A stretch of 64,000 nucleotides of DNA from the sequence record MK817115.1. One strand, written 5' to 3'. This DNA comes from Escherichia phage vB_EcoM_phAPEC6. This document shows positions 36,445 to 54,746 of this stretch, one piece after another. The notes under the pieces were generated by a model that saw only the letters and a list, made by a program, of their open reading frames with translations, made no database searches and was not told the origin of the DNA. Made by a program: the position numbers and the translations under genes. How positions within the stretch are numbered: the stretch's first letter is position 1; each line of letters starts with the position of its first letter.

Positions 36445-36654
36445 TTAATCCTTCGTTACGCTAACGATTATCTGTGTATCCCCGTAGTCCTGCCATACTT
36501 CCACGCCATCGGTCGCCCTGGTTAGTCGTGCTGTCATCTGCTTAATGGTCTTAGGCTTTAGTGGAACCTGTTGCAGTACTGTACGCATAGCATCATTGAC
36601 GTTATCATGTACGCCTGCAATAGTACCTAGAACGCTGTATACTGTATAGAACAT
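36445..36654 (-). CDS. hypothetical protein
   Basis: ORF-track ORF; AGGAG RBS; hairpin AGGCCGC/GCGGCCT immediately upstream. Confidence 0.5.
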   Translation of the reverse strand: MFYTVYSVLGTIAGVHDNVNDAMRTVLQQVPLKPKTIKQMTARLTRATDGVEVWQDYGDTQIIVSVTKD

Positions 36655-36722
36655 ATGTATGTACTCCTGATATAGTTAAGGCCGCTACAAGGCGGCCTAT
36701 GATGTTTGGTGATGTGTAACGC

Positions 36723-37124
36723 TTACAGTCCTAAGATAGTGCGTGCTTCGTTACGTTCCGTACACAGCTGCATGATGTGAGCAAGTAAGTCCTTGCTAAT
36801 GTATCCGTTGTCCATAGCTTCACGGATAGATACATCATAAGCACCGAACCCCGTGCGAACGATACGCACATCATTCAGGTTAGTATTATAGATACCGCCG
36901 AGATCAACGGCTTCGAATACTACATCAACAGAATATTCATTGTTGCCATCGTGGAAGTTTTCCAGTGCAATAGTATTGGATACCGCCCAACGTTTGCAGT
37001 TTCCAATGATGCGGCACTGTTCCGGTTGGATAGTGCCATTACTTACAGCGTACTCCAGTGCATCTTTACCGAAAGTCCGAGCCAGTACTAAAACGTCAGC
37101 GAAGGAATTGATTGAGAAGGTCAT
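36723..37124 (-). CDS. hypothetical protein
   Basis: start at Met12 behind AAGGAG RBS; track ORF to 37157 reads into 5' hairpin of cassette. Confidence 0.55.
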   Translation of the reverse strand: MTFSINSFADVLVLARTFGKDALEYAVSNGTIQPEQCRIIGNCKRWAVSNTIALENFHDGNNEYSVDVVFEAVDLGGIYNTNLNDVRIVRTGFGAYDVSIREAMDNGYISKDLLAHIMQLCTERNEARTILGL

Positions 37125-37213
37125 GATAAAACTCCTTAATTTAGGAGGGAGAACCATTTCCCCCTCTCTATGTAAAACATTATACTTGATTCTAAGTACT
37201 ATGCAAGTACTTT
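37125..37213 (-). promoter_or_regulatory. promoter / 5' stem-loop / RBS cassette
   Basis: TTGCAT -35, TATAAT -10, GTTTTACAT, GGGGG..CCC hairpin, AAGGAG RBS (minus-strand reading). Confidence 0.6.
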
Positions 37214-37546
37214 TTACATTTTAATACCTGGATTCAGGTAGCGGTGAGATCCATATTCTGGATCGGTTTCGGTCCAGTACTGTAAATCTATAGTACCTTT
37301 AGCGTTAATCTTGTCTACCAGCTTATTCATCTTAGCGTATACTACATCAGCATCGATGCGTTTAAAGCCAGTAGCTTTAGTGAAGTAGTAGTGATTTGCT
37401 TCACTATCATTAAGGATATACCGAGCACCGTTTGCAGTCTGTGCGATAATGATTGAGTATTCTACTTCCCGATCCAGACCGTCGATGAATACAGATGAAA
37501 CATTGGTACGGATGAAAGCTTTAACGATAGCGATTGAAGTACTCAT
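37214..37546 (-). CDS. hypothetical protein
   Basis: ORF-track ORF; TTGACA-17-AATAAT promoter and AGGAGA RBS upstream. Confidence 0.55.
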   Translation of the reverse strand: MSTSIAIVKAFIRTNVSSVFIDGLDREVEYSIIIAQTANGARYILNDSEANHYYFTKATGFKRIDADVVYAKMNKLVDKINAKGTIDLQYWTETDPEYGSHRYLNPGIKM

Positions 37547-37649
37547 TTTGAATCTCCTAACTTTGTGGGCCGTCGCACCATTGCCGCCCTACGAGATACA
37601 TTATTGCAGTACTGATATACTTTGTCAATACTTTTTTATTAATAGTTTT

Positions 37650-37790
37650 AGTTCCACCAGCAGATAGTTACTCACCGTTATTAACTATATATTTTGGATA
37701 CACTCCTGCACCCAGTGGGCTAGTTTTTGTCTATGCGTATATAATAGCAAAGGGACTGACCGGAGTCAATCCCTTTTTTATTCTTTTTTG
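37650..37790 (+). ncRNA. conserved intergenic element, candidate small RNA with bidirectional terminator (copy 1)
   Basis: GATACAC..GCACCCAGTGGGC core, TATAATAG box, GGGACTGACCGGAGTCAATCCC hairpin flanked by A-run and T-run. Confidence 0.3.
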
Positions 37791-37991
37791 TTAGATGATT
37801 CTCCAATCTTCTACGATCATGGTAAGATAACGGACCATCGATTCAAGTGATTCGAATTCCCGATAGTCTGCCGCTCCACCAGCGGTACAAGTACAGCCGA
37901 TTAAACCATTTTGCAATTCCTTAATCTGTACATCGATAAGGTTGGCTTTAGCTTCTTTCAGTACTTCAACCAGGGCGATAGCGATAGACAT
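37791..37991 (-). CDS. hypothetical protein
   Basis: ORF-track ORF; cassette upstream. Confidence 0.55.
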   Translation of the reverse strand: MSIAIALVEVLKEAKANLIDVQIKELQNGLIGCTCTAGGAADYREFESLESMVRYLTMIVEDWRII

Positions 37992-38081
37992 AATGTTTTA
38001 CTCCAAACTATTAGCGGGAGAACTATTCCCCCGCTCTATGTAAAACATTATACATTACTGGTTAGTACTGTCAAATAGTTT
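37992..38081 (-). promoter_or_regulatory. promoter / 5' stem-loop / RBS cassette
   Basis: GCGGGGGAATAGTTCTCCCGC hairpin between TATAAT and GGAG RBS. Confidence 0.6.
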
Positions 38082-38339
38082 TTATGAAATATCTTCGATG
38101 TAGTCGGCCCATTTCATTTTTTCAGTACTGTCAATGGCTACCGGATTATTTGGATCAAACCATTCACCATTACCGCAGTACATACCAACGGCTACGGTTT
38201 TATAGCCATCCTGGGCCGTACTCCACGACATTGCACGATAGATATGGCCTTTAACTGGTTGCAGTACTGGTAATGTTTTATGGTCTTCTACGTAGGCCAT
38301 AGCTTGAGGATTTACCCGATATTGTGTGAACTGTTCCAT
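38082..38339 (-). CDS. hypothetical protein
   Basis: ORF-track ORF; TTGACA-17 promoter-like site upstream. Confidence 0.5.
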   Translation of the reverse strand: MEQFTQYRVNPQAMAYVEDHKTLPVLQPVKGHIYRAMSWSTAQDGYKTVAVGMYCGNGEWFDPNNPVAIDSTEKMKWADYIEDIS

Positions 38340-38415
38340 TATGTTTCCCCTTGTAGTTAGTAAAGTTATTACATCAGTACTATCAAGCTATGTCAATAGT
38401 ACTGAAATAAAACTT

Positions 38416-38640
38416 TTAGATTAGATTATTGATGCCTGAAATGGTAGACTCACTTTCTTCTTTCTCCCATTGGCGGTAGTACTTCCACGCTTCATGATAG
38501 GTGGCGATCAGTTCATCTTTTTGATCCTGAGTACATGCCAGTACTGAATCACTGTAAGCGGTGTTATAGATAGAATCGAATGATTTCTTCTCTTCTGCCA
38601 GGTTAGCTACTTCCCGCATCAGTTCATCAAAGTTAGCCAT
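38416..38640 (-). CDS. hypothetical protein
   Basis: start at Met16 (MANFDELM) after cassette; track ORF to 38685. Confidence 0.55.
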   Translation of the reverse strand: MANFDELMREVANLAEEKKSFDSIYNTAYSDSVLACTQDQKDELIATYHEAWKYYRQWEKEESESTISGINNLI

Positions 38641-38708
38641 TTTAGTACTCCTTATTAGTGGGGGAGGATATCTCCCCCTATGCAAAACATTATACTTTGT
38701 TTTAGTTA

Positions 38709-38972
38709 TTATGCAAGTACTTTTTTCATATAAACATTAAATTCTACACCGCCGTAACCTTCTACGATGATATGTTTTGCGTTATCACGTTTGCACATAG
38801 TGAAACCGTTGTTGATGTGTTCTGCATTTTCCAGGGCGACATCACCGATAGCGGCACATACGGCACTAATAACAGTATTCCGCAAAGTACTGGTATCATT
38901 AGCGGTCATAGTAGTTTGCAGTACTACGTTGTCGTATACGTGTGCATTGATAGTGATTTCGATAGTGTTCAT
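38709..38972 (-). CDS. hypothetical protein
   Basis: ORF-track ORF; cassette with AGGAGA RBS upstream. Confidence 0.55.
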   Translation of the reverse strand: MNTIEITINAHVYDNVVLQTTMTANDTSTLRNTVISAVCAAIGDVALENAEHINNGFTMCKRDNAKHIIVEGYGGVEFNVYMKKVLA

Positions 38973-39058
38973 GGTGTATCTCCTGCACAGTCGGGAGAAC
39001 TATTCCCCCGCTCTATGTAAAACATTATACGTTAATCTAACTACAATGCAAGTACTTT
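38973..39058 (-). promoter_or_regulatory. promoter / 5' stem-loop / RBS cassette
   Basis: TTGCAT-16-TATAAT, then CGGGGGAATAGTTCTCCCG hairpin, AGGAGA RBS. Confidence 0.6.
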
Positions 39059-39250
39059 TTAAATTTTATTTCCGATATAGTCCGGTCTATTCTTTTCGGT
39101 CATACGCTTTGCTAATGTTTGCATATGGCTTATTGCGTTTAATGTGTCTTCCTCCAGGGATGAATCAACATAATCAGGATCATTCTTCACCTTGCAATGA
39201 TTATGATAGCGTAGTACTGCCAGTACTTTTTTAACTTCTTCTACTGTCAT
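39059..39250 (-). CDS. hypothetical protein
   Basis: ORF-track ORF; overlaps start of upstream gene (operon). Confidence 0.5.
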   Translation of the reverse strand: MTVEEVKKVLAVLRYHNHCKVKNDPDYVDSSLEEDTLNAISHMQTLAKRMTEKNRPDYIGNKI

Positions 39251-39519
39251 AATAAGTACCCCACTTCGTTAGCTTTCAGGTTAGTATCAATCATCAGTGG
39301 ATTTTTGTAGTTCACAAAACGATTAGTTTTCTCGATAGCGAATCCCATATAATCCAGCTTACTAACAGTACATTCATTCTTAAAAACTTCTTTCGCTGCA
39401 TTGATGGCTGATTCAATTGATAACCGACCATCTAAGTTAATGTTTCCAAATGATCCACCAGCAGAAGTAGGATTACCGTTCATATCTTTAATGATCATAG
39501 TAGCGGAGTAGCTAGACAT
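39247..39519 (-). CDS. hypothetical protein
   Basis: ORF-track ORF; cassette upstream. Confidence 0.55.
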   Translation of the reverse strand: MSSYSATMIIKDMNGNPTSAGGSFGNINLDGRLSIESAINAAKEVFKNECTVSKLDYMGFAIEKTNRFVNYKNPLMIDTNLKANEVGYLL

Positions 39520-39603
39520 AATTTTGTTTCCTTTTAGTATCGGGGAGAACTATTCTCCCCTTGATGTAAACTATTATACAGTACTAAGATACTTTGTCAA
39601 TAC
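39520..39603 (-). promoter_or_regulatory. promoter / 5' stem-loop / RBS cassette
   Basis: TTGACA-16-TATAAT variant, GGGGAGAA..TTCTCCCC hairpin. Confidence 0.6.
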
Positions 39604-39825
39604 TTAATTACGTTTAAAATGATATGTGCCTTTATCATCCTGTACGCCCCATACTGATTTACCATCAACACCAGTGAAACCGGATTGTAATTCAATATGG
39701 AAACCATTATTATCAACTACAAAAACTTTTTTATTTTCATCCCGATAACATTGATATTCTGAATCAACATTAAAGGCCGCATCATTCAGAAGATTGGAAG
39801 CGTAAATGCAAGTCATTGTAGTCAT
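39604..39825 (-). CDS. hypothetical protein
   Basis: start at Met26 (MTTMTCIY); track ORF to 39900 reads through leader hairpin. Confidence 0.5.
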   Translation of the reverse strand: MTTMTCIYASNLLNDAAFNVDSEYQCYRDENKKVFVVDNNGFHIELQSGFTGVDGKSVWGVQDDKGTYHFKRN

Positions 39826-39914
39826 GATTTTATTCCTTATTGCCAGGGAGAACCATTTCCCCCTCTCGATATAAAACATTATACTTGATTCTAAGTACAA
39901 TGCAAGTACTTTTT

Positions 39915-40056
39915 ATCAAATACTTTAAAATAGTTTTCAGTACTGAATACTTATATAATAGATACACTTATGCACCCTGTGGGTCAGTGAGTTATCTCTC
40001 AATGAATATATATTAGCAAAGGGACTGACCGGAGTCAATCCCTTTTTTAATCTTTT
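39915..40056 (+). ncRNA. conserved intergenic element, candidate small RNA with bidirectional terminator (copy 2)
   Basis: near-identical to copy 1: TATAATAGATACACTTATGCACCCTGTGGG ... GGGACTGACCGGAGTCAATCCC T-run. Confidence 0.3.
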
Positions 40057-40641
40057 TTATCGTGTTATAGTTACGGCTTTTACATCACGCTTTTTATAGT
40101 ACTGATTCCAGATATTGCGGGTTAAACCGTAATCAAGTACTTTAATAAGTCCATTACGATCCTGGCCGATATTCTGTTTTCTGATATCTCTTATCGTTAG
40201 TGTTGATAATGTATCATCGACGTGTTGTAGTGCATCAGCAAAGCGGTGCTGGCGTTCAATGGCATTACGTTTAATATTGTACTTTAATTCGTTGCACGCG
40301 TTAACGTGCTTCACACTGCCTTTACTTGCAGTACTCAACCGATCCATAACGATAAACATATTATCAGGATCGCATAAATGCATATGCACCTTTGCAAAGT
40401 ACTGTTTCAATTGAGGGCGGTCATAGTCTAAAAAATTCCATACCTTACATTCAGTTTCATTTTGTTCTACACCCGCATCACAATTGGCGACCTTAATCAC
40501 TAACCGATCATTTAAAGCGAATACGATACGGGAAGAACCCGCCCCGATGATCTCCAGGCCAGCTAACCGACAAGCTGAAAGGATCTCTTTGTTGGTTTCC
40601 ATTTCTGACAGTGTACGGATGAATTTAGTATAATTACGCAT
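40057..40641 (-). CDS. putative protein kinase (Hanks-type catalytic motifs)
   Basis: Gly-rich loop IGAGSSRIVF, VIKV lysine, catalytic loop RDIRKQN, DFG-like LDYG; start at Met20 behind AAGGAGA RBS. Confidence 0.6.
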   Translation of the reverse strand: MRNYTKFIRTLSEMETNKEILSACRLAGLEIIGAGSSRIVFALNDRLVIKVANCDAGVEQNETECKVWNFLDYDRPQLKQYFAKVHMHLCDPDNMFIVMDRLSTASKGSVKHVNACNELKYNIKRNAIERQHRFADALQHVDDTLSTLTIRDIRKQNIGQDRNGLIKVLDYGLTRNIWNQYYKKRDVKAVTITR

Positions 40642-40672
40642 TGCATGTTCTCCTTGAGTTAATGAAACTATC

Positions 40673-40915
40673 TTACAGTACTTTACTATCAATGGCAACC
40701 ACTTTTTTCACACTAACCGCGTGAATCACTTCCTTAGTGTTTTTAGTACTGAATACTTTCGCTGTTCCTTGTTCTACTGCAATGCGATAACGACCGTTAA
40801 CATCAACCATATTAATAAAGTCCGGTGTACTAAACCGAGTAGTACGGCATTTCAGTACTGTTAACAATTCCACCAGCGATGTAGTTTCTTTGATACGTTT
40901 TTCTAAAGTAATCAT
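40673..40915 (-). CDS. hypothetical protein
   Basis: ORF-track ORF; TTGACA promoter-like site upstream. Confidence 0.5.
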   Translation of the reverse strand: MITLEKRIKETTSLVELLTVLKCRTTRFSTPDFINMVDVNGRYRIAVEQGTAKVFSTKNTKEVIHAVSVKKVVAIDSKVL

Positions 40916-40973
40916 TTTGTTTTCCCCCGTGTTGGTATGTACATATAGTACTAAAACATTTGAGTACTGTCAA

Positions 40974-41192
40974 TTAGATAATAGAATATTTCTTTAGTGA
41001 TAATGCGTCTTCTGTCGGTTGATATTCTACACCGTTCCCGTTATCAACCTTAGTGAGTAAACCTTTATCAATGAGTTTTTTGATGGTACGGTTTCCCTGT
41101 TGAAAACTGGTGAAGTGTGAATCATTACGAAAGGTATAACCGTGCTTCACTGCTTCATCAATAGTTTTCTTTTCGATTTTAGATAATTTCAT
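40974..41192 (-). CDS. hypothetical protein, possible winged-helix DNA-binding
   Basis: start at Met21 (MKLSKIEKK); TTGACA-17-TATTAT promoter; weak HTH-like pattern only. Confidence 0.45.
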   Translation of the reverse strand: MKLSKIEKKTIDEAVKHGYTFRNDSHFTSFQQGNRTIKKLIDKGLLTKVDNGNGVEYQPTEDALSLKKYSII

Positions 41193-41248
41193 TTTGTTTC
41201 TCTCTCTGTGTTGGTATAGATACATAATACTAAAACAATTGAGTACTG

Positions 41249-41503
41249 TCAACGTGATATTAGTTTTATTTTTTTATTGTATTGTTGGTGTTCATATAGA
41301 TTAATTTTTCCAGTACTCTCAATTACTATTCTATTGTTAGTGTCTACATCGATAACACGTAGTTTCCCGTTGCTTAACTTCCTGGGTAATAGACTACCAT
41401 TAATAAACTCATTAGCAAGCTGTACGGCCTTTGTGATGATTCTCTGTGGTGCTTTATAGTGTACCCGCAAGATATTATCTTTAGATAGTTGTACCTTCAT
41501 CAT
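41249..41503 (-). CDS. hypothetical protein
   Basis: ORF-track ORF downstream of terminator. Confidence 0.45.
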   Translation of the reverse strand: MMKVQLSKDNILRVHYKAPQRIITKAVQLANEFINGSLLPRKLSNGKLRVIDVDTNNRIVIESTGKINLYEHQQYNKKIKLISR

Positions 41504-41512
41504 TTTAGTTTA

Positions 41513-41545
41513 TCCTATAAAAAAAGGCGGGAACTGAACCCGCCG
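41513..41545 (-). terminator. rho-independent terminator
   Basis: GGCGGG..CCCGCC hairpin followed by T7 on minus strand. Confidence 0.6.
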
Positions 41546-41567
41546 TGTTGTTAGTACTGCAAAGTTA

Positions 41568-41963
41568 TTAGATAACCTGGCGGCGTTTACTGTATACTGT
41601 TACACGGTTTCCTTTACGGTCATGACGGATCTCTTTCTGGTTACGAATCAGTTCACTTGGACGCTTAAGGTTTGCCAGGTGATCCGCGTGAGTCCATGCA
41701 TTTGCGTTAACTGTAACTTCAATATCAGAACCTTTCAAAAAGTCATCTTGAGCGTTCAGTACTTCAGCCAGTTCTTGAGCTTGCTTTAGTTCTGCTTCAG
41801 TAAGTACAGGCTCAGGTGAATTCACAATATCAGAGATCTCTTTGAACTGTACCGCCCAGCGTTGTCCTTTCGGTGCATCTTTGCCCATGTCTTTAAATGT
41901 TTCACCTTCTTCACGAGCAACGATGCGAGCTTGTTCACGGGTAGCGAAGAATTTAGTAATCAT
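41568..41963 (-). CDS. hypothetical protein (FATREQAR paralog 1)
   Basis: paralog of 53585..53851 (KYFATREQARIAAR, DRKGNRVTVY); consensus TTGACA-17-TATAAT promoter; start by analogy at Met4. Confidence 0.55.
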   Translation of the reverse strand: MITKFFATREQARIVAREEGETFKDMGKDAPKGQRWAVQFKEISDIVNSPEPVLTEAELKQAQELAEVLNAQDDFLKGSDIEVTVNANAWTHADHLANLKRPSELIRNQKEIRHDRKGNRVTVYSKRRQVI

Positions 41964-42062
41964 GGTGTACATCCTATTAGTTAAGTTAATTAGTACTACA
42001 AGTTAGAGTCTATTATAAAGTACTATCTGGGCAATGTCAAATAGTACTTTAAATGGATTCTA

Positions 42063-42386
42063 TTACATGTCTTTTTTACGTTTTACATCGTAGTAACGAA
42101 CTGTAATTTCTTTGTTGATCTCATCCTCAATTCTGTGTAGTACTTTCTCTTTCGGGTTGAAACCTATTACAGTTTCTTTAATGATCTCCAAGCCCGTGTA
42201 TTCGCCTTGTGTACCGTAACCGTAAGTAAAGGTTTCATGTCCCAGGTCTTCCCAGCGGTCACCAATCAATGCAGACACGTAGCATGAGTGGTAAGTATTG
42301 CCGTGGCTATCAGTCCACCGATTAACTTTAATGTCAAAGGAAGTTACAATTTTCATTTCTACTTTCTGGGCAAGGATCATAGTCAT
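42063..42386 (-). CDS. hypothetical protein (YGYG/DVKRKKD paralog 1)
   Basis: paralog of 48255..48599; cassette upstream. Confidence 0.55.
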   Translation of the reverse strand: MTMILAQKVEMKIVTSFDIKVNRWTDSHGNTYHSCYVSALIGDRWEDLGHETFTYGYGTQGEYTGLEIIKETVIGFNPKEKVLHRIEDEINKEITVRYYDVKRKKDM

Positions 42387-43356: not shown

Positions 43357-43360
43357 CTTT

Positions 43361-48599: not shown

Positions 48600-48680
48600 T
48601 TTAATTTCCTCTTAGTTGTCTTGATAAAATCTATTATGCCAGTACTATCAAACTATGTCAATAGTACTGTGATAATATTT

Positions 48681-48824
48681 TTACTTACTTTTTGCTTTCT
48701 TTGCTGCTTCCACCTGGTCGGCCCATTCTTTACCCCATACTTGTAAATTATAATGGTACTGGCAAAGTGCAACGCCCCGCTTTAAACCAGTAATAGATTT
48801 TTTACCACATTGACAAGTTTTCAT
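48681..48824 (-). CDS. small Cys-rich protein (47 aa), possible zinc ribbon
   Basis: CQCG...CQYH spacing; cassette upstream; hand-translated. Confidence 0.35.
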   Translation of the reverse strand: MKTCQCGKKSITGLKRGVALCQYHYNLQVWGKEWADQVEAAKKAKSK

Positions 48825-48910
48825 ATTAGTTTCCTCATTATCAGGGAGAACCATTTCTCCCCTTGATGTAATGTATTATACTTTATCTGATTTACTTTGC
48901 AAGTACTTTT

Positions 48911-49138
48911 TTAATTTAATTCATCCAGGCAAAGGATACGCTCAACGCCCAAATCAGTTAAACTAATCGACGGCACTTGATAGGTTTCAATGTATGCTAC
49001 ACTTGCCCACTGACCGAACTCATTAACGGCCCATTTATCCATTGCAAAATGCAATTCCGCACCTTTCTTATTAGTAATTACAGCAACAGTAGAAGAATTG
49101 CCAGTAGTACCAGTTACGCGAGTGATTACGATAGCCAT
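48911..49138 (-). CDS. hypothetical protein
   Basis: start at Met20 (MAIVITRV); track ORF to 49195 reads through leader. Confidence 0.5.
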   Translation of the reverse strand: MAIVITRVTGTTGNSSTVAVITNKKGAELHFAMDKWAVNEFGQWASVAYIETYQVPSISLTDLGVERILCLDELN

Positions 49139-49422
49139 TGTTTTAATTCCTTTGATTTGGAAGGAGAACCGTTTCCCCCTCTCGATGTAAAACATTATAC
49201 GCTAATCTCTTAATCGTGCAAGTACTTTTTATTACTTTTTGCAAAATACTTTAAACGCACTCAATCGCGTTCTTACAGCCTTAACGCCACCAGCTAGGGC
49301 AATGCATCAGATAATCAGTTTAATGCGTTAGAATCGATTCTAGGCGGTGCTGGTGGCCTGGTAAACGTTAAACACAAAAAAGCCCACTTATGCAGTGGGC
49401 TAGTGATTCAGTACTTTAATTG

Positions 49423-49905
49423 TTATGCTTCCACTTTGCGATGAGCTTCGATCCATTCCTCGCGAGTCATACCGCTGGAGTTAATCGCATCCAGTACTAC
49501 CGCAATGCAGTTACCACGCACCGGAATCAGATATTCTTCCCCGTTGTCCAGTACTACCGCTACACGTTTTTGAATCCATTTTTTAGGCTTAGATTCCGGC
49601 TTATCTTCCCCATACTTAACCGCCAGGGCTTTTTGTGCCATCTCTGTAACTACTTCCAGATCCAATCCAACTACTGCCGCCTGAATACTTTCAATTGTTG
49701 CTTGTAGTTCTGCTTCACGGGCCGCCTTTGCCGCTTCAATTTCTGCCGCTTTATTTGCTTGTAGTTCTTTCGCAGTACTATAAGCGATGTTAAAATTATT
49801 GCGTACCGCTTTCATGGTATCGTTATCCAGATCAGCCAGGATCTCTGCCGCGACGTTAGTTTCATTTGCTACCAGTGCTTTGATGAATGATTTTACATTA
49901 GCCAT
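49423..49905 (-). CDS. hypothetical Ala-rich coiled-coil protein
   Basis: start at Met6 behind GAGGA RBS; tandem promoters with structured leader upstream. Confidence 0.5.
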   Translation of the reverse strand: MANVKSFIKALVANETNVAAEILADLDNDTMKAVRNNFNIAYSTAKELQANKAAEIEAAKAAREAELQATIESIQAAVVGLDLEVVTEMAQKALAVKYGEDKPESKPKKWIQKRVAVVLDNGEEYLIPVRGNCIAVVLDAINSSGMTREEWIEAHRKVEA

Positions 49906-50103
49906 TTTATAAATCCTCAATTAAAGTTTAGTTTACGTTGGTTAGTGTATCAAAGTTTTCTCGACGTGTCCAGTTTTTCGTTCGACTTACTGGCGGTCTA
50001 CTTAGTGCTCCCCGTCTTGATGTAATATATTCTACGCCTTTTTGCGGTAATGTCAACTATTTTTTAAAACTATTTTCAAAGTATCTCAGTACTACGATAC
50101 TAC

Positions 50104-50132
50104 AAAAACAAAAAAAGCCCACCAGGTGGGCT
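50104..50132 (-). terminator. rho-independent terminator
   Basis: AGCCCACC..GGTGGGCT hairpin followed by T-run on minus strand. Confidence 0.6.
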
Positions 50133-50138
50133 ATGTAC

Positions 50139-50369
50139 TTAATCAGTAATTAAAACATTAAACACTTTATCATTTAACGTTATGGGTGTACTGCTACCAG
50201 GCTTGAGATCAGTTAGTACACCTGCAATAGCTTTTTCATTGGCGACCTTTCCAGTGTCCAACAGTACTACAGTACTGATAAGATTAACGCTCGTTTCAAT
50301 ATCATAATGCACGGCGTTAAGTAGTTGTGTAGTACTGCTTTCGTTAAGTAAAACAATTCGCTTAGTCAT
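50139..50369 (-). CDS. hypothetical protein
   Basis: ORF-track ORF. Confidence 0.5.
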   Translation of the reverse strand: MTKRIVLLNESSTTQLLNAVHYDIETSVNLISTVVLLDTGKVANEKAIAGVLTDLKPGSSTPITLNDKVFNVLITD

Positions 50370-50390
50370 GATGTTACCCCGTAGTATCTA

Positions 50391-50690
50391 TCAACGGCAA
50401 TTAATAACGCCAGTATGAGTTACTTTCTCAGTATCCATAACAGTGACCGAACCGCGTTTAGTACTTGCATCGTAATAAATTGTCGTGCTACCGTTTTCGT
50501 CTTCTTCATGGAACGGGCCGTTTTTAAATGCTTCCGGCTGGATCTCTAAATCCTTTAAAACAATCTCGCCAGTACTTTCATCGGTCATTGCAACAGTGCA
50601 CTGAATGAATTTTTCACTACTTACATCTAATGACGCATTAACAGCGAAAGAGGAAACAGATAAAGCCAGGGCGATGATTGCAATTTTCAT
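50391..50690 (-). CDS. secreted/periplasmic hypothetical protein
   Basis: classical signal peptide MKIAIIALALSVSSFAVNA with AXA site; two Cys; cassette upstream. Confidence 0.55.
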   Translation of the reverse strand: MKIAIIALALSVSSFAVNASLDVSSEKFIQCTVAMTDESTGEIVLKDLEIQPEAFKNGPFHEEDENGSTTIYYDASTKRGSVTVMDTEKVTHTGVINCR

Positions 50691-50775
50691 TTGATTATCC
50701 TTAGTTACCAGGGGGAACCGCTCCCCCCTTGCGATGTAAAATATTATACAGTACTAAAAACTAATTGCAAGTACT
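50691..50775 (-). promoter_or_regulatory. promoter / 5' stem-loop / RBS cassette
   Basis: TTGCAA, TATAAT, GGGGGAACCGCTCCCCCC hairpin. Confidence 0.6.
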
Positions 50776-51012
50776 TTATGATTTTTTATAAAACATTTCG
50801 GCAGTGATATTTTTACCCGTTGGTTGTACTTTATCCAGAATTTTTTGATGTCCAGGGCGACCAAATGAATAAGATCCGTAAACCGTAAACCAGTAGTTAC
50901 CCTCAGTGTTTACATGTACAGCACAATAGGGAACGCCCCGCGATTCATCACTAGTAAAGTGTGATACCGTACCCGTTACATTCGCAGACGTTGATTTGAT
51001 TTGTTCGACCAT
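50776..51012 (-). CDS. hypothetical protein
   Basis: ORF-track ORF; cassette upstream. Confidence 0.5.
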   Translation of the reverse strand: MVEQIKSTSANVTGTVSHFTSDESRGVPYCAVHVNTEGNYWFTVYGSYSFGRPGHQKILDKVQPTGKNITAEMFYKKS

Positions 51013-51120
51013 TTTCTTATTCCTTAGTTACCAGGGGAACCGCTCCCCCTATGCAAAACATTATACGCGTTTAAAAACTAATAGCAAGTATTTTAATAAA
51101 AAGTATTTGGAAAATAATTG

Positions 51121-51149
51121 TTGACAAGTGCATCCAGTACTGGCATAAT
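51121..51149 (+). promoter_or_regulatory. plus-strand sigma70-like promoter
   Basis: TTGACA-17-CATAAT; followed by CCCACCGGGTGC-containing ~100 nt and a terminator hairpin. Confidence 0.45.
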
Positions 51150-51262
51150 TACTACATCAAGACGAAACAGTCACTAACCCACCGGGTGCCGAGATCCGTC
51201 TATTAAATGATTCAGTACTAAAAAAAGAAAGGGGATCAATTGATCCCCTCGTTGTTATTTTG
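51150..51262 (+). ncRNA. candidate small RNA
   Basis: bounded by promoter above and GGGGATCAATTGATCCCC hairpin plus T-run; no ORF. Confidence 0.3.
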
Positions 51263-51476
51263 TAAGGTATAAACAGAAGTCACCTTTATTTGCTACGCCG
51301 CCAGTGTAACGCGAGGAATAGTTAGAAACGTCCTGGACTTCTGCTATTACCAGGGTATCATCATTCAATTCGTCGCAGAAGCAAACGGCTGGATCTTGTA
51401 CGCCGATATTGTCGGCATGTTCCCGCATAGATTTAACCAGTGCTTCAAGTTGGGAAAGAGTAGTGATATTAGCCAT
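51255..51476 (-). CDS. hypothetical protein
   Basis: start at Met11 (MANITTLSQ); track ORF to 51506. Confidence 0.5.
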   Translation of the reverse strand: MANITTLSQLEALVKSMREHADNIGVQDPAVCFCDELNDDTLVIAEVQDVSNYSSRYTGGVANKGDFCLYLTK

Positions 51477-51559
51477 TTTATTTTCCTCATTACCAGGGAG
51501 AACCATTTCTCCCCTTGATGTAAACTATTATACAGTACTAAAAACTAATTGCAAGTACT

Positions 51560-51841
51560 TTAACTGTAAGATCCGCAACGGTCGCAGTAGTGCCCCTCGT
51601 CATCGTCAACGAATTGACCAACGAAATTATCTACTTTCGCTTTCAGGTTATTATAATCGTTTTCTACTTCATTTAAACGCTTCTGGTAGTATTCCAGTGC
51701 TTTAAGATATGCCGCATCAGCAGTTTTCTCCTGCATAGCTAAATTCATGCCACGCGTTTCATCGTACAGCCAAAAACCATCGGTGCACTGGCTAATAGAT
51801 AATGACTTGCTTAGTACTGTATAGTTAATTACTTTACTCAT
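51560..51841 (-). CDS. hypothetical protein
   Basis: start at Met28 behind GAGGG RBS; track ORF to 51922 reads through GGCGGGG..CCCGCC hairpin. Confidence 0.5.
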   Translation of the reverse strand: MSKVINYTVLSKSLSISQCTDGFWLYDETRGMNLAMQEKTADAAYLKALEYYQKRLNEVENDYNNLKAKVDNFVGQFVDDDEGHYCDRCGSYS

Positions 51842-51899
51842 TAGATAAACCCTCAATAAAGGCGGGAACCATTCCCCGCCATTGTTACAGTACTGAATA

Positions 51900-52139
51900 T
51901 TACATTCCAACCATTGCAGCACGGATCGCAGTAGTGCTATACTTAAAGCCGTCCGGCGTTGTAGTAGTACCGTTGGCTTTTAATCTGCGGTACATGCATT
52001 CCGCTGCAATATCTTTAGTTCTACTTTGTGCGATACAACTTTGTGCAAGCCGATACAATGACTCACCGTTATTAATCCATAAGGAAACATTCCAATGAGT
52101 TTTGTTTTTGTGCCCGTTGTAAGTTTTAGTACTAGCCAT
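51900..52139 (-). CDS. hypothetical protein (THWNVSLWINN paralog 1)
   Basis: paralog of 53937..54176 (GHKNKTHWNVSLWINN, TPDGFKYSTTAIRAAMVGM). Confidence 0.55.
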   Translation of the reverse strand: MASTKTYNGHKNKTHWNVSLWINNGESLYRLAQSCIAQSRTKDIAAECMYRRLKANGTTTTPDGFKYSTTAIRAAMVGM

Positions 52140-52231
52140 TTTTTTTAATCCTCGTTTGAGCGGGGAACCACTCCCCGCCTCGATATAAAGTATTATACGC
52201 TTTTAAACTTAGTTTGCAAGTACTTTTTAAA
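52140..52231 (-). promoter_or_regulatory. promoter / 5' stem-loop / RBS cassette
   Basis: TTGCAA, TATAAT, GCGGGGAACCACTCCCCGC hairpin. Confidence 0.6.
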
Positions 52232-52843
52232 TTAATATTCGATTGATTCTACTACGCCATCAATAACATTGAATTGATATTCGTTACCCTCAATCAGTGC
52301 TGTAATGTTTTCAGTAGTGAATTGATCCTCATATGCATTCTCTAAATCACGGTACAACTTGCGGGATAATTCACGAATAGTTTCAGTGAGTAGTTCCTCA
52401 AGCTCATTAACTAACGTTTCTTGTTTTGCGGTTAAATCAGTGTAAGCCGATTCAATGTACCCGCTTACAGTGTTTTCATGCGAGTAGTGGGAGTGAGAAC
52501 GCTTTACACTCATCGCCAAATCATCTTCATTCAGCAGGTGACGGATTGAGCGATACTTAGTTAATGCTCTTACCTTGCGTAAAAACTTCACTGCGTCAAC
52601 GTGGTCAGTACTGATTGATGCACCGTCACCCTGGGACCAAAAACCACTGAATTGTATTTCAGCGTCATTAATGCCATATTCCGGCAATACTGTTTCTTTA
52701 TAGTGTTCAATTTCACTTTCAGAAAAATAATCGTCGTTTGAGTTTTTTTCACGTTCCCGAACCAGTTCGATAGCTGACGTTTTTTGTTCTGCGTTCAATT
52801 CAGAAAAATCCATAACATAAGTAGTAGTAGTGATAGTTTTCAT
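52232..52843 (-). CDS. hypothetical acidic protein (203 aa)
   Basis: ORF-track ORF, strongly Asp/Glu-rich; tandem promoters with structured leader upstream. Confidence 0.55.
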   Translation of the reverse strand: MKTITTTTYVMDFSELNAEQKTSAIELVREREKNSNDDYFSESEIEHYKETVLPEYGINDAEIQFSGFWSQGDGASISTDHVDAVKFLRKVRALTKYRSIRHLLNEDDLAMSVKRSHSHYSHENTVSGYIESAYTDLTAKQETLVNELEELLTETIRELSRKLYRDLENAYEDQFTTENITALIEGNEYQFNVIDGVVESIEY

Positions 52844-53060
52844 TTTGTAACCCTCATTCAGTAGTTTATGTAAGTATTATACGCTTTTAAAAACAATTGT
52901 CAAACTATTTTATCAGGGGAGTTTTTCGTGTGCCTTACTCCTGGGCTACTTAACGGGAAGTTACTTATTTCGTTCCCCGTCCTGATGTAAAACATTATAC
53001 GCCTTTAAACATAGTTTGCAAGTACTTTTTAAAAATAGTTTTCAGTACTGAATAGTAAAA
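52844..53060 (-). promoter_or_regulatory. tandem promoters separated by ~80-nt structured leader element (copy 2)
   Basis: near-identical to 43085-43170 element with compensatory stem changes. Confidence 0.5.
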
Positions 53061-53065
53061 AGGTA

Positions 53066-53094
53066 TTGACAGCACTATCCAGTACTGGTATAAT
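53066..53094 (+). promoter_or_regulatory. plus-strand consensus sigma70 promoter
   Basis: TTGACA-17-TATAAT; downstream CCCACCGGGTGC and GATACACTCCCGCACCC elements, no ORF. Confidence 0.45.
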
Positions 53095-53268
53095 ATACCC
53101 CATGACAACAGCTAACCCACCGGGTGCACAATTGTAACTGTACTAAACTACTTTTTCTATAGATACACTCCCGCACCCTATGGGCTACGGCTTATCTGCC
53201 AATGAATACATTATGCCAGTACTGACAAAATAAGTCAATACCGGCAATTGTAAAGATTTGTAAACTAC

Positions 53269-53499
53269 TTATACTGCAATCGCGTCCAGGCTATAATAAT
53301 AATAAGTGCCGTATTGGTGTACTTTATTACCTTTTATTTCAGTACTGAATGAATCCGAACGATTGGCATATGATGTTAATTTATAGTACTTTACTTTACT
53401 AATACGTTGCCATACACCGCAGATCCGCTGTAAGTAAGTAGTTTTATTTGTGGTAGTATCTTTTACGGCTTTCAATTCGATCATATACATAGTGGTCAT
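53269..53499 (-). CDS. hypothetical protein
   Basis: ORF-track ORF; AAGGAG RBS and cassette upstream. Confidence 0.55.
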   Translation of the reverse strand: MTTMYMIELKAVKDTTTNKTTYLQRICGVWQRISKVKYYKLTSYANRSDSFSTEIKGNKVHQYGTYYYYSLDAIAV

Positions 53500-53584
53500 T
53501 TTATTACTCCTTGCTTTAGTGGGGAACTATTCCCCACCTGATATAAAGTATTATACGCGTTTAAACTTAGTTTGCAAGTACTTT

Positions 53585-53851
53585 TTATTCAAGTACTGCG
53601 ATCTTTTTAATACGGTACACGGTCACGCGGTTGCCCTTTCGGTCGAGCTTTATTTCTACCACTCGACGCGATACACTATCAGGACTTTTCAACGCCGCTA
53701 ACCAGTACTGTAATGATCTGGCGGTACTACGCTTTACAATGGCCCAACGTTTACCACGTTCCGATTGTACGCCCATATCTTTAAACGTTGCCCCGTCCTG
53801 GCGTGCGGCGATCCGAGCTTGTTCACGCGTCGCAAAATACTTAATATTCAT
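53585..53851 (-). CDS. hypothetical protein (FATREQAR paralog 2)
   Basis: start at Met13 (MNIKYFATREQ); promoter region also paralogous to that of 41568..41963. Confidence 0.55.
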   Translation of the reverse strand: MNIKYFATREQARIAARQDGATFKDMGVQSERGKRWAIVKRSTARSLQYWLAALKSPDSVSRRVVEIKLDRKGNRVTVYRIKKIAVLE

Positions 53852-53936
53852 GCTGTTGCCCTTATCGTTGGTGTATGAATAAAACACTATTATAAAGTAC
53901 TATCGCAAAAAATGATAGTACTTTAAATAAATTCTA

Positions 53937-54176
53937 TTACATTCCAACCATTGCAGCACGGATCGCAGTAGTGCTATATTTGAATCCGTCCGGTGTTTTA
54001 TCTTGTCCAGTCTGTTCTAAAAATAACATCATATGACGGGCCGCATCATTACGATTAGTATTGGCGGCAATAAAGTCCTGGGCCAACCGGTATAATGATT
54101 CATCGTTATTAATCCAAAGGCTTACATTCCAATGAGTTTTGTTTTTGTGACCTAAGAACATTTTTGATTTAGCCAT
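53937..54176 (-). CDS. hypothetical protein (THWNVSLWINN paralog 2)
   Basis: start at Met14 (MAKSKMFLGHKNKTHW) by analogy with 51900..52139. Confidence 0.55.
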   Translation of the reverse strand: MAKSKMFLGHKNKTHWNVSLWINNDESLYRLAQDFIAANTNRNDAARHMMLFLEQTGQDKTPDGFKYSTTAIRAAMVGM

Positions 54177-54269
54177 TTTTTTAATCCTCTTATATAGTGG
54201 GGAACTATTCCCCACCTGATGTAAAACATTATACGCTTTTAAACATAGTTTGCAAGTACTTTATTAAAC
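54177..54269 (-). promoter_or_regulatory. promoter / 5' stem-loop / RBS cassette
   Basis: TTGCAA, TATAAT, GGGGAACTATTCCCCAC hairpin. Confidence 0.6.
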
Positions 54270-54632
54270 TTATTCGTAAATTTTGCCACTGTCAGCCCAT
54301 ACCAGGAAACGAGGCATATTATCCCATGCATCTTGTTTTAAATTTAAACCGTGTAATACTTCTGTACTTTCCATTCCTGGTACTGGTTTACTATACACCG
54401 CAAATAGTTCACCCATATACTGATAAGCCATCGTTAAATCACTGGCGATCATCTTATGGATCATCGCATCAAGCATCACGGTAGCGGCGTATTGTTCACG
54501 CTTAAGCGGTAACATTGCAATAAGTTCCCGATAAGCTGAAATGTGAATTTTTACCGTTTCAGCCGGAAGACCTTTCATCTCTTCACGGAAGTTAACCAGG
54601 TTAGCAATAATTTTATTGATTTGAGTCGCCAT
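54270..54632 (-). CDS. hypothetical protein
   Basis: start at Met20 (MATQINKII) behind AAGAGAGA RBS; first gene after the noncoding hub. Confidence 0.5.
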   Translation of the reverse strand: MATQINKIIANLVNFREEMKGLPAETVKIHISAYRELIAMLPLKREQYAATVMLDAMIHKMIASDLTMAYQYMGELFAVYSKPVPGMESTEVLHGLNLKQDAWDNMPRFLVWADSGKIYE

Positions 54633-54746
54633 CGTTTTCATCTCTCTTACAGTGTAGCGGGAAGTGTTCCCGCTCTCGATGTAAAACATTATACGCTTTT
54701 AAACATAGTTTGCAAGTACTTTCTACATGTACTTTTAAAATAGTTT

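What the first reader, a model, noticed from the sequence alone, without database searches (positions are those of the whole stretch)
36654..54730. About 29 copies of a near-identical promoter / 5' stem-loop / RBS cassette
Most genes between 36.4 and 54.7 kb are preceded, on the coding strand, by a -35 (TTGCAA/TTGCAT/TTGACA), a 16-17 nt spacer with AGTACT, TATAAT, the words GTTTTACATC(A/G)AG, a G-rich hairpin such as GGGGAGAAnnnnTTCTCCCC, then an AAGGAG-type RBS and ATG. The hairpin lies after the -10 and is not followed by a U-run, so it is a 5' UTR structure rather than a terminator. It is stabilised by G-U pairs only on the mRNA strand, which argues for function at the RNA level (stability, RNase processing or translational control).
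Basis: partly seen in the sequence, partly recalled or inferred. Interest (0 to 1): 0.8.

Follow-up and report, generated by a model that had tools for sequence, protein, structure and literature searches.

The report
Jumbo-phage early promoter–hairpin–RBS cassettes
A giant E. coli phage drives about two dozen tiny early genes in its terminal repeat with copies of one ~90-base control unit (strong host-type promoter, a conserved RNA hairpin in the mRNA leader, ribosome site). This resembles the promoter/stem-loop cassettes known from T4-like phages, but here the hairpin is transcribed into the mRNA rather than acting as a terminator.

Summary
Between 37.1 and 56.0 kb there are 37 near-consensus sigma-70 promoters. 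Twenty-three of them carry the full cassette: -35, 16-nt spacer, TATAAT, (G/A)TTTTACATCRAG, an 8-bp G-rich hairpin, SD and ATG. That is 23 full copies, not 29.

The hairpin starts 12±1 nt after the -10 and is never followed by a U-run. It shows compensatory changes in 9 of 10 stem pairs, and 13 of the 25 family hairpins contain G·U pairs that only work on the mRNA strand.

The region is the ~20-kb direct terminal repeat of an Asteriusvirus (Rak2-like) jumbo coliphage, which is probably (inferred) its first-entering early region of small ORFan genes. Klebsiella relatives have hairpins at the same position with unrelated stem sequences. Serratia and Yersinia relatives keep the promoter but mostly lack the hairpin.

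Single-gene insertions and deletions between relatives have their junctions inside the cassettes, as with T4-type PeSL elements.

Most likely the hairpin is an mRNA leader/intercistronic stability element that leaves the ribosome site open, while the cassette also serves as a recombination linker. The function is inferred, not shown. I rate it a new variant of a known kind, of moderate interest.

The parts
54639..54720 (-). Cassette 1: -35 TTGCAA at 54715, TATAAT, GTTTTACATCGAG, hairpin 54674-54656 (AGCGGGAA-CAC-TTCCCGCT), SD, ATG 54641
   Evidence: the downstream 123-aa ORF matches phrog_7352 over its full length
54174..54260 (-). Cassette 2: -35 TTGCAA at 54255, hairpin 54216-54196 (GGTGGGGAA-TAG-TTCCCCACT), ATG 54176
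53497..53582 (-). Cassette 3: -35 at 53577, hairpin 53538-53518, ATG 53499
52137..52224 (-). Cassette 4: -35 at 52219, hairpin 52179-52159 (GGCGGGGA-GTGGT-TCCCCGCT), ATG 52139
51474..51559 (-). Cassette 5: -35 at 51554, hairpin 51514-51495, ATG 51476
51010..51092 (-). Cassette 6: -35 TTGCTA at 51087, hairpin 51051-51032, ATG 51012
50688..50775 (-). Cassette 7: -35 at 50770, hairpin 50729-50710, ATG 50690
49136..49226 (-). Cassette 8: -35 TTGCAC at 49221, hairpin 49181-49160 (two G·U pairs), ATG 49138
48822..48907 (-). Cassette 9: -35 at 48902, hairpin 48862-48843, ATG 48824
47294..47380 (-). Cassette 10: -35 at 47375, hairpin 47335-47316 (G·U), ATG 47296. The 229-bp unit made of this cassette and its 48-aa gene is absent from phage TH47.
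47066..47151 (-). Cassette 11: -35 at 47146, hairpin 47106-47087 (GGGGAGAA-ATGA-TTCTCCCC), ATG 47068
46478..46564 (-). Cassette 12: -35 at 46559, hairpin 46518-46500, ATG 46480
46043..46129 (-). Cassette 13: -35 TTGACA at 46124, hairpin 46084-46066, ATG 46045
44268..44350 (-). Cassette 14: -35 TTGCAT at 44345, 17-nt spacer, TATAGT, hairpin 44306-44288, ATG 44270 or 44276
43994..44078 (-). Cassette 15: -35 TGGACA at 44073, hairpin 44033-44014, ATG 43996
42747..42834 (-). Cassette 16: -35 TTGACA at 42829, hairpin 42789-42771 (GTGGGGAA-TAG-TTCCCCAC), ATG 42749
42384..42475 (-). Cassette 17: -35 TTGACA at 42470, hairpin 42428-42410 (G·U), ATG 42386
39823..39910 (-). Cassette 18: -35 TTGCAT at 39905, hairpin 39864-39845 (G·U), ATG 39825
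39517..39605 (-). Cassette 19: -35 TTGACA at 39600, hairpin 39560-39542, ATG 39519
38970..39056 (-). Cassette 20: -35 TTGCAT at 39051, hairpin 39010-38992 (G·U), ATG 38972
38638..38721 (-). Cassette 21: -35 TTGCAT at 38716, hairpin 38678-38660 (GGGGGAG-ATATC-CTCCCCC), ATG 38640
37989..38079 (-). Cassette 22: -35 TTGACA at 38074, hairpin 38035-38013 (10 bp), ATG 37991
37122..37211 (-). Cassette 23: -35 TTGCAT at 37206, hairpin 37166-37145, ATG 37124
51839..51880 (-). Family hairpin without a promoter (GGCGGGGA-ATGG-TTCCCGCC, 51880-51861). It sits directly after the stop codon of the upstream gene and is followed by TTTATT, an SD (GAGGG) and ATG 51841. It is the only family copy with a T-rich tail.
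55400..55418 (-). Second family hairpin without a promoter, in the non-coding leader near the genome end
38337..56003 (-). Fourteen further sigma-70 consensus promoters of the same series without the family hairpin. Their -35 starts are 56003, 53021, 52903, 50056, 48661, 45813, 45544, 44762, 43213, 43097, 42040, 41252, 38396 and 37628. Most have short leaders (about 26-44 nt from the -10 to the ATG). 53021, 43213 and 50056 are followed by a different structured non-coding leader. 37628 has a GGGCGGCA-type hairpin like those of phAPEC8-like phages.
34900..56368 (.). Inferred direct terminal repeat (DTR) of the phage genome, which contains all the cassettes. The right boundary (the physical genome end) is at about 56368. 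The left boundary is approximate.
   Evidence: OQ718158 annotates a DTR at 1-21525, and its position 1 aligns to window 56368. Muenster has a DTR at 1-20030 by PhageTerm. Sharanji has a DTR of 20,668 bp (PMC11895373). G+C rises to 0.36-0.40 in this stretch.

Best explanation
The window comes from an Asteriusvirus (Rak2-like) jumbo coliphage, and 35-56.4 kb is its ~20-kb direct terminal repeat. This is presumably the first DNA to enter the cell. It is packed with about 45 small, mostly ORFan genes read by the host sigma-70 RNA polymerase.

The repeated ~90-bp unit is an early-gene expression cassette. It has an A/T-rich upstream flank, a near-consensus promoter with a 16-bp spacer, a conserved initial transcribed sequence (ACATCRAG), an optional ~20-nt G-rich stem-loop, an A-rich linker with a Shine-Dalgarno sequence, and the ATG.

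The stem-loop is transcribed and works as RNA in cis. My preferred mechanism (inferred) is that it is a stable obstacle placed 3-7 nt from the 5' end of each promoter's own transcript. In read-through transcripts from upstream promoters it lies between cistrons. There it would slow 5'-end-dependent RNase E attack or scanning. After cleavage downstream of it, it would cap the upstream cistron against 3' exonucleases. In both cases it leaves the ribosome site single-stranded.

At the DNA level, the many near-identical cassettes act as homology linkers. Through them single genes are gained, lost and exchanged between related phages, in the manner of T4-type PeSL elements.

Shown computationally: the cassette anatomy, the excess over chance, the covariation, the absence of terminator features, the DTR location, and the indel junctions inside cassettes. 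Inferred: the transcription start, the timing of expression, the stabilising role, and the recombination mechanism.
For: Anatomy and excess over chance.

Not a terminator: 0 of 23 copies have 5 or more T in the 8 nt after the stem, and none is called terminator-like, while genuine terminators occur nearby.

RNA-level pairing:
- Covariation in 9 of 10 pairs; 0 of 500 shuffles reach it; slid controls are 48-68% paired against 84%.
- G·U 10 against A·C 2, and both A·C lie in the outer extension of one helix.
- 25 hairpins form on the sense strand against 12 on the antisense.
- Sense folds are more stable than antisense folds.

Structure kept while sequence changes. The DTR promoters of Klebsiella phages Muenster and OU509535 have hairpins that start 10-14 nt after the -10 but have unrelated stems: GGAGATTCCA/TGGAATCTCC, GGGAATGAA/TTCATTCCC, GGGGATACA/TGTATCCCC.

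The hairpin is a separable module. The distance from the -10 to the ATG is 46-56 nt with the hairpin and about 26-34 nt without it. The ACATCRA/ATATCGAAAC start region persists in the hairpin-less promoters of Serratia BF and Yersinia Yen9-04. One copy has hairpin + SD + ATG but no promoter.

The RBS stays open. The opening cost is 2.6 kcal/mol in the native sequence, 3.0 with the hairpin deleted, and 2.3 in hairpin-less leaders.

DTR location. Genes are ORFans plus a GNAT acetyltransferase and a weak kinase-like hit.

Shuffling. 18 of 33 homology-block ends fall in cassette intervals that cover 17.8% of the region. Four single-unit indels relative to TH47 have a 60-97 nt stretch of the query that aligns to both flanking cassettes.

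A cassette plus its gene is shared with phAPEC8-like phages at 79-89% identity.

PeSL precedent: PMC2839356 and PMC4122927.
Against: - No transcript data exist, so the start site is only predicted from the -10.
- With a start at the A that is 6 or 8 nt after the -10, 3-7 nt stay unpaired 5' of the stem. From my own knowledge of the ompA 5' hairpin work and of RppH/RNase E 5'-end sensing, that is more than the 0-4 nt at which a 5'-terminal hairpin protects best. Canonical 5'-end protection would therefore be incomplete.
- A third of the promoters in the same region, and most of those in the Eneladusvirus relatives, do without the hairpin. It is therefore not needed for expression.
- The G·U/A·C asymmetry rests on roughly 7-8 independent events.
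- Covariation among paralogues was measured on a register chosen by a helix finder.
- Block ends would fall in intergenic DNA to some extent under any model, because breaks inside genes are selected against.
Confidence: 0.5

Rival explanations
1. PeSL-type attenuator. The stem-loop stops or pauses RNA polymerase that arrives from upstream promoters, so that each gene is expressed mainly from its own promoter. The location just inside the next transcript would then be incidental.
For: In RB49/phi1 a G(n)-loop-C(n) stem-loop from a PeSL reduced read-through like a strong terminator, and one PeSL subclass has the stem-loop downstream of the -10 (PMC2839356). The promoter-less copy at 51880 does have a T-rich tail. 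There are only about 5 canonical terminators for about 45 genes.
Against: 0 of 23 copies have a U-tract; the mean is 1.5 T in the 8 nt after the stem. The phage uses textbook hairpin+U terminators where it terminates. The distance to the -10 and to the ATG is fixed, which an attenuator of upstream transcription would not need. The promoter's own transcripts would be attenuated equally.
Confidence: 0.12
2. Protein or RNase handle. The hairpin is the common recognition site for a phage or host RNA-binding protein or endoribonuclease that shuts off or processes all terminal-repeat early mRNAs together, analogous in logic to T4 RegA/RegB.
For: The GGGRA...UYCCC core is conserved within the genus. 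In silico removal of the 5' arm frees an anti-SD-like UUCUCCCC arm and raises the RBS opening cost by 1.7 kcal/mol on average, and by up to 5.9. The DTR of relative Muenster is annotated with a YafQ-like ribonuclease and a kinase.
Against: Loops differ freely (UAG, AUGG, AUGA, ACGG, CAC, GUGGU), even between orthologues: CAC in the window against TGG in TH47. One Klebsiella phage carries four or more unrelated stem families at the same position. Both argue against sequence-specific recognition. No candidate binding protein was identified.
Confidence: 0.15
3. DNA palindrome only. The inverted repeat acts in DNA as an operator or roadblock for a dimeric repressor at +13..+32, or as a recombination or cruciform site. 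The RNA hairpin would be a by-product.
For: 12 of the 25 copies are perfect palindromes that look the same on both strands. Indel junctions lie in the cassettes.
Against: The mismatches in the core stems are G·T on the coding strand and not A·C. Stem sequences diverge while pairing is kept, within and between genera, so no fixed operator sequence exists. Recombination needs only the ~90-bp homology, not the palindrome.
Confidence: 0.08
4. Translation element. The hairpin works as a platform or insulator that standardises ribosome loading, for example by keeping variable upstream RNA in read-through transcripts from pairing with the SD.
For: The spacing from the stem to the ATG is fixed at about 19 nt, inside the 30S footprint. 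One copy has hairpin-SD-ATG without a promoter. Native leaders open slightly more easily than hairpin-deleted ones (2.6 vs 3.0 kcal/mol, p=0.0003).
Against: The effect size is 0.4 kcal/mol. Hairpin-less leaders in the same region are at least as open (2.3 kcal/mol).
Confidence: 0.15

Closest known systems
PeSL (promoter-early stem-loop) cassettes of T4-like phages RB49/phi1, PST and nt-1 (Arbiol et al. 2010, PMC2839356; Comeau et al. 2014, PMC4122927)
   Same: Both are composite ~100-bp intergenic units with an A/T-rich flank, a near-consensus sigma-70 promoter, a G-first GC stem-loop, an SD and an ATG. Both are present in dozens of copies in front of small ORFan early genes in a hypervariable region. 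In both, gene gain and loss between close relatives has junctions inside the repeats.
   Different: In PeSLs the stem-loop lies upstream of, inside, or just after the promoter but before the start site, in variable positions, and it was shown to terminate. Here it sits at one fixed position inside the transcript (about +6 to +28), has no U-tract, and carries coding-strand-only G·U pairs. The host phage is a Rak2-like jumbo phage, not a Tevenvirinae member, and the cassettes are concentrated in a direct terminal repeat. The blastn search found the cassette only in Rak2-like and phAPEC8-like phages among the records listed. Mini-circles were not tested.
5' stem-loop mRNA stabilisers in E. coli: the ompA 5' UTR hairpin and the phage T7 gene 10 (phi10) leader GGGAGACCACAACGGUUUCCC (own knowledge, not checked here)
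   Same: Both are a G-first GC hairpin near the 5' end of a highly expressed mRNA, followed by an A-rich linker and a strong SD, with the RBS left unpaired.
   Different: The classical stabilisers sit within 0-4 nt of the 5' end. Here 3-7 nt are predicted to be unpaired. No half-life data exist for these transcripts.
Early host-takeover regions in terminal repeats: the SPO1 terminal redundancy and the T5 pre-early region (own knowledge). For Rak2-like phage CBB: RpoD-like promoters in front of short ORFs, with three on the 22-kb terminal repeat (PMC5259590)
   Same: Both are a terminal repeat that carries many short genes, each with a strong host-type promoter and RBS.
   Different: None of the Rak2-like, rV5-like or related papers I read (CBB, RaK2, Sharanji, rV5) describes a conserved post-promoter hairpin, and I know of none for SPO1 or T5.

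Membership tests
PeSL (T4-type promoter-early stem-loop cassette) | Near-consensus sigma-70 promoter with an A/T-rich upstream flank | tested here: met
   There are 37 promoters, 12 of them perfect 12/12 matches. A+T is 78% in the 25 nt upstream of the -35, against about 62% for the region.
PeSL (T4-type promoter-early stem-loop cassette) | An adjacent stable GC stem-loop, plus an SD and start codon at the 3' end of the unit | tested here: met
   Twenty-three units have an 8-bp G-first stem of -10.6 to -17.7 kcal/mol, followed by an SD and ATG.
PeSL (T4-type promoter-early stem-loop cassette) | The stem-loop lies upstream of, within, or just after the promoter but before the start site, and acts as a terminator or attenuator of upstream transcription | tested here: not met
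   The stem starts 10-14 nt after the -10, inside the predicted transcript. No copy has a U-tract and none is called terminator-like. Termination activity itself cannot be tested with these tools.
PeSL (T4-type promoter-early stem-loop cassette) | Many copies flank small ORFans in a hyperplastic region, and recombination between copies shuffles genes | tested here: met
   The genes are mostly PHROGs of unknown function. 18 of 33 block ends lie inside cassettes. There are four single-unit indels relative to TH47 whose junction lies in the repeat.
PeSL (T4-type promoter-early stem-loop cassette) | Formation of encapsidated mini-circles | not testable with these tools
   This needs inverse PCR on virion DNA.
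Intrinsic (Rho-independent) terminator | A GC hairpin followed directly by a U-run | tested here: not met
   The 8 nt after the stem hold 1.5 T on average; 0 of 23 copies reach 5. Only the promoter-less copy at 51880 qualifies.
5'-terminal stabiliser hairpin (ompA type) | A hairpin within about 0-4 unpaired nt of the primary 5' end | tested here: inconclusive
   The predicted unpaired leader is 3-7 nt, depending on the start site (the A that is 6 or 8 nt after the -10) and on outer stem pairs. The start site is not mapped.
5'-terminal stabiliser hairpin (ompA type) | Lengthens mRNA half-life in an RNase E-dependent way | not testable with these tools
   This needs rifampicin chase experiments.
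RNase III processing site (T7 early-mRNA type) | About 20 bp of duplex, often with an internal loop | tested here: not met
   The stems are 7-10 bp. The length requirement is from my own knowledge.
Any curated RNA family (Rfam 15) | A covariance-model match | tested here: not met
   No relevant match at E<=1 in 34.0-57.5 kb.

The most novel reading that the evidence does not exclude
The hairpin is a shared switch handle. One cut in its 5' arm or loop, by a phage- or host-encoded endoribonuclease, would free the anti-SD-like UUCUCCCC arm. That arm would then pair with the nearby Shine-Dalgarno sequence and silence all the hairpin-bearing terminal-repeat early genes at once. This would be a cis-encoded, genome-wide early shut-off device. 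Alternatively or in addition, cassette+gene units could be mobile modules that move between Rak2-like jumbo phages and unrelated phAPEC8-like phages.
Probability: 0.15. Interest if true: 0.75.

Novelty: new variant of a known kind. Interest (0 to 1): 0.5.

Why it matters
Rak2-like jumbo phages (Asteriusvirus, Alcyoneusvirus and relatives) are being isolated in large numbers for therapy, yet none of the papers I could search maps their transcription. This finding gives a concrete, testable map of their immediate-early programme: about 37 host-type promoters in the terminal repeat, and a defined, covarying leader hairpin on two thirds of them.

If the hairpin stabilises or co-regulates early mRNAs, it would be a compact natural part for expression design in E. 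coli. It would also offer a handle on how a 350-kb phage times its host takeover.

The cassette-bounded indels extend the PeSL idea, in which regulatory repeats act as linkers for gene shuffling, beyond T4-like phages. They help explain why the terminal-repeat gene sets of otherwise about 95% identical phages differ.

Tried and rejected
- The IMG/VR scan with TATAATNNTTTACATCRAG gave 59 stretches. Most were single matches on contigs that did not look like Rak2-like jumbo-phage genomes, so I took them to be chance hits. The few large contigs included at least three genomes already in GenBank. I did not use these loci further.
- The plain MAFFT alignment of the leaders was out of structural register because loop lengths differ, and RNAalifold saw only 5 pairs. 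I replaced it with a loop-anchored arm alignment.
- Three promoter scans under-counted because a greedy regular expression took TAATGT as the -10. This was diagnosed and fixed. Their numbers are not used, apart from the leader-length comparison taken.
- The pooled strand-symmetric G·U/A·C count over all genera was uninformative (11 vs 13). Non-family helices and outer extensions dominated the A·C class. Only the family core stems are used.
- RBS sequestration or exposure by the hairpin is rejected as a main role: the effect is 0.4 kcal/mol.
- Other readings rejected: an RNase III site (stems too short); an intrinsic terminator (no U-run); nut/boxB-like antitermination (one hairpin per gene, free loop variation); and a nascent-hairpin effect on promoter escape (the hairpin can only form after escape; own reasoning).
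- Literature searches for Asteriusvirus promoters and for AGTACT returned nothing relevant. The search for post-promoter stem-loops in rV5/phAPEC8 phages led only to the rV5 paper, which does not describe them.

Full report
**1. What is there**

The feature lies on the minus strand. The word GTTTTACATCRAG (up to 2 mismatches) occurs 24 times in the window against 5.2±2.6 in shuffles; 18 of the matches are on the minus strand between 37.1 and 54.7 kb. The repeat finder returns families of 15-22 copies of 41-86 nt that cover hairpin, -10 and -35.

A scan for TTGNNN-N16/17-TATAAT (up to 1 mismatch in the -10) gives 37 sites on the minus strand between 37206 and 56003. Twelve are perfect matches to TTGACA/TATAAT. 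Thirty-one of the 37 have a 16-nt spacer, and the 25 nt upstream of the -35 are 78% A+T.

Twenty-three sites carry the full cassette with a very regular geometry:
- from the -10, 12±1 nt to the stem (the (G/A)TTTTACATCRAG word);
- a stem of 8 bp (range 7-10) and a loop of 3-5 nt;
- about 19 nt, including an AAGGAG/GAGGA/AGAGAG-type SD, to the ATG.

**2. More than chance**

Twenty-four of the 37 promoters have a structure of -10 kcal/mol or stronger in +6..+42. Shuffled segments give 1.7 per set (maximum 5). Only 1% of random 37-mers outside the region reach that value. All 25 family hairpins in the 64-kb window lie between 37.1 and 55.4 kb.

**3. Not a terminator; an RNA structure on the coding strand**

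The 8 nt after the stem contain 1.5 T on average, and none of the 23 copies reaches 5. The terminator scan calls none of them. It does find ordinary hairpin+U terminators in the same region, at 41544, 49401, 50132 and 51250 on the minus strand.

Thirteen of the 25 hairpins contain G·U pairs, so only 12 still form at least 7 bp on the opposite strand. A strand-symmetric helix search gave 10 G·U against 2 A·C, and both A·C lie in the outer extension of one helix (binomial p=0.04). Sense folds are more stable than antisense folds (-13.2 vs -11.9 kcal/mol, Wilcoxon p=0.018).

I tested covariation on a loop-anchored alignment of 34 distinct arm pairs from this window, phage TH47 and Salmonella phage SE_PL:
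- 84% of all cells form standard pairs, and about 97% in the inner eight pairs;
- sliding the 3' partner gives 48-68%;
- 9 of 10 pairs show changes on both sides;
- none of 500 shuffles reaches the observed values;
- one pair runs G-C 21 / A-U 7 / G·U 6, the classical path through a G·U intermediate.

There are three caveats. The register was chosen by a helix finder. The copies are paralogues, so events are partly shared. The independent G·U events number only about 7-8.

**4. Where it is**

The window is 90-95% identical to Asteriusvirus jumbo coliphages such as SHEFM2K, CMSTMSU, SP27, slurp01 and PBECO4/121Q.

In phage vB_Ec-M-J the homologous stretch is annotated as the direct terminal repeat, positions 1-21,525. 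Position 1 of that record aligns to window 56,368. Klebsiella phage Muenster has a 20,030-bp terminal repeat by PhageTerm with the same layout of short genes. Phage Sharanji has one of 20,668 bp (PMC11895373).

G+C rises from 0.30-0.35 to 0.36-0.40 in 36-56 kb, and the GC skew flips at about 56 kb.

The genes are small and almost all of unknown function. The exceptions are a GNAT acetyltransferase (44349-44705) and a weak kinase-like hit (40057-40698).

This layout matches the early "host-takeover" arrangement known from the SPO1 and T5 terminal repeats (own knowledge) and proposed for Rak2-like phage CBB (PMC5259590).

**5. Relatives**

The cassette is detectable by blastn in 70 phage records from Escherichia, Klebsiella, Salmonella, Erwinia, Yersinia and Serratia.

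In the Klebsiella phages Muenster and OU509535, terminal-repeat promoters are followed by hairpins that start 10-14 nt after the -10. Their stems are unrelated to those here: GGAGATTCCA/TGGAATCTCC, GGGAATGAA/TTCATTCCC, GGGGATACA/TGTATCCCC, GGGGCAA/TTGCCCC.

In Serratia phage BF and Yersinia phage fHe-Yen9-04 the promoter and the ATATCGAAAC start region persist, but the leader is short and the hairpin is nearly always absent.

Two conclusions follow. The ACATCRA word belongs to the promoter/initial transcribed region. The hairpin is a separable ~20-nt module: the distance from the -10 to the ATG is 46-56 nt with it and about 26-34 nt without it.

Within the window the hairpin goes with the promoter subtype. 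TTGCAN promoters carry it in 17 of 19 cases and TTGACA promoters in 6 of 18. One copy has hairpin, SD and ATG but no promoter (51880-51839).

**6. Mechanism**

The hairpin neither masks nor clearly exposes the ribosome site. The computed opening cost of SD+ATG is 2.6 kcal/mol in the native sequence, 3.0 with the hairpin deleted, and 2.3 in hairpin-less leaders. It is too short for RNase III (own knowledge). It has no match in Rfam.

I therefore favour a cis-acting stability and insulation role. The hairpin would be a stable obstacle near the 5' end of each promoter's own transcript. Because most genes lack terminators, it would also lie between cistrons in read-through transcripts. There it can hinder RNase E 5'-end-dependent attack or scanning, and it can cap upstream cistrons against 3' exonucleases. 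This mechanism is drawn from established E. coli mRNA decay work and the T7 gene 10 leader (own knowledge).

The weak point is the predicted 3-7 unpaired nt at the 5' end. That is more than is ideal for classical 5'-terminal protection.

Removing only the 5' arm in silico frees the anti-SD-like UUCUCCCC arm and raises the opening cost by 1.7 kcal/mol on average. This keeps a cleavage-triggered shut-off model alive, but only as a minority reading.

**7. Comparison with PeSLs**

T4-type PeSLs are composite units of early promoter, stem-loop and SD in front of ORFans, and they mediate modular shuffling (PMC2839356, PMC4122927). The present cassettes share that composition, the G-first stem, the copy number and the ORFan context.

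They also share the shuffling signature. Eighteen of 33 homology-block ends against vB_Ec-M-J and TH47 fall in cassette intervals that cover 17.8% of the region. Four single-unit differences from TH47 show 60-97 nt of the query aligning to both flanking cassettes: window 39063-39846, 40973-41189, 47156-47291 and 50778-51010. One cassette+gene unit is shared with phAPEC8-like phages.

They differ in one defining point. The PeSL stem-loop lies before the transcription start and terminates. Here it sits at a fixed position inside the transcript and lacks terminator features.

None of the Rak2-like or rV5-like genome papers I could read mentions such hairpins.

**8. Verdict**

This is a real, well-defined regulatory cassette family. 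It is best filed as a PeSL-like cassette of a new variant (transcribed leader hairpin, jumbo-phage terminal repeat) rather than a new kind of element. Its function is inferred, not shown.

Noticed in passing
whole window; also loci L001-L003, L005, L065-L067: The palindrome AGTACT (often CAGTACTG) occurs 271 times against 21.5 expected, a 12.6-fold excess; the next 6-mer palindrome reaches only 2.9-fold. Density is 3.4 per kb in coding DNA and 9.3 per kb in intergenic DNA. The terminal-repeat loci of Asterius-, Alcyoneus- and Eneladusvirus phages and of SE_PL show the same 13-21-fold excess, but the phAPEC8-like phage nepoznato does not (2 vs 3.9). In Klebsiella phages it often forms the tip of hairpins. 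The cause is unknown; candidates are a protein-binding site, a modification site or a recombination site.
   Followed up: partly
window 37696-37779, 39966-40048, 43275-43352, 46609-46691 (+ strand): Four copies of an ~80-nt unit lie antisense to the early genes. Each has its own sigma-70-like promoter and a strong intrinsic terminator (AAAGGGACTGACCGGAGTCAATCCCTTTTTT). On the minus strand, the terminator stem contains the -35 (TTGACT) of a promoter (TATTAT) that faces into the unit, which makes a sense/antisense RNA pair. The core GCACCCNGTGGG is conserved in the Klebsiella, Serratia and Yersinia relatives. Related + strand promoters lie at 53066, 54996 and 55211.
   Followed up: partly
window 52902-52988, 43096-43182, 49945-50023 (- strand); L065 (3 copies); L002:5307-5390: The early promoters at 53021, 43213 and 50056 are followed by a ~70-nt non-coding leader instead of a gene. 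It has a conserved 16-nt loop, GUAAGNCNNACGAAAA, closed by a helix that shows GG/CC to CC/GG swaps between copies and genera. The next promoter follows immediately. There is no Rfam match. This is a candidate new structured RNA of Rak2-like phages.
   Followed up: partly
window 55466-55617: An array of about 12 degenerate 8-bp units (CGTCTAGC / CATCCAGC / CGTTTAGC) lies in the 1.7-kb non-coding leader, about 0.8 kb from the inferred physical genome end (~56368). It could be a packaging, end-recognition or replication site.
   Followed up: no
window 37600-37628 and L004 (phage nepoznato) 2370, 5217: One window promoter (37628) carries a different leader hairpin (GGGCGGCA-ATGG-TGC..GCC), of the type found after promoters in the phAPEC8-like phage nepoznato. 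In the other direction, nepoznato carries an Asteriusvirus-type cassette (AGCGGGAA-CAC-TTTCCGC, at 6398). This suggests exchange of cassettes between unrelated phage groups.
   Followed up: partly
window 34959-36225 (- strand): Six consecutive 66-75-aa ORFs have overlapping stop/start codons and 64-78% similar 72-nt starts (repeat family D18). They form a tandem paralogue array at the inner edge of the terminal repeat and have no cassettes between them.
   Followed up: no
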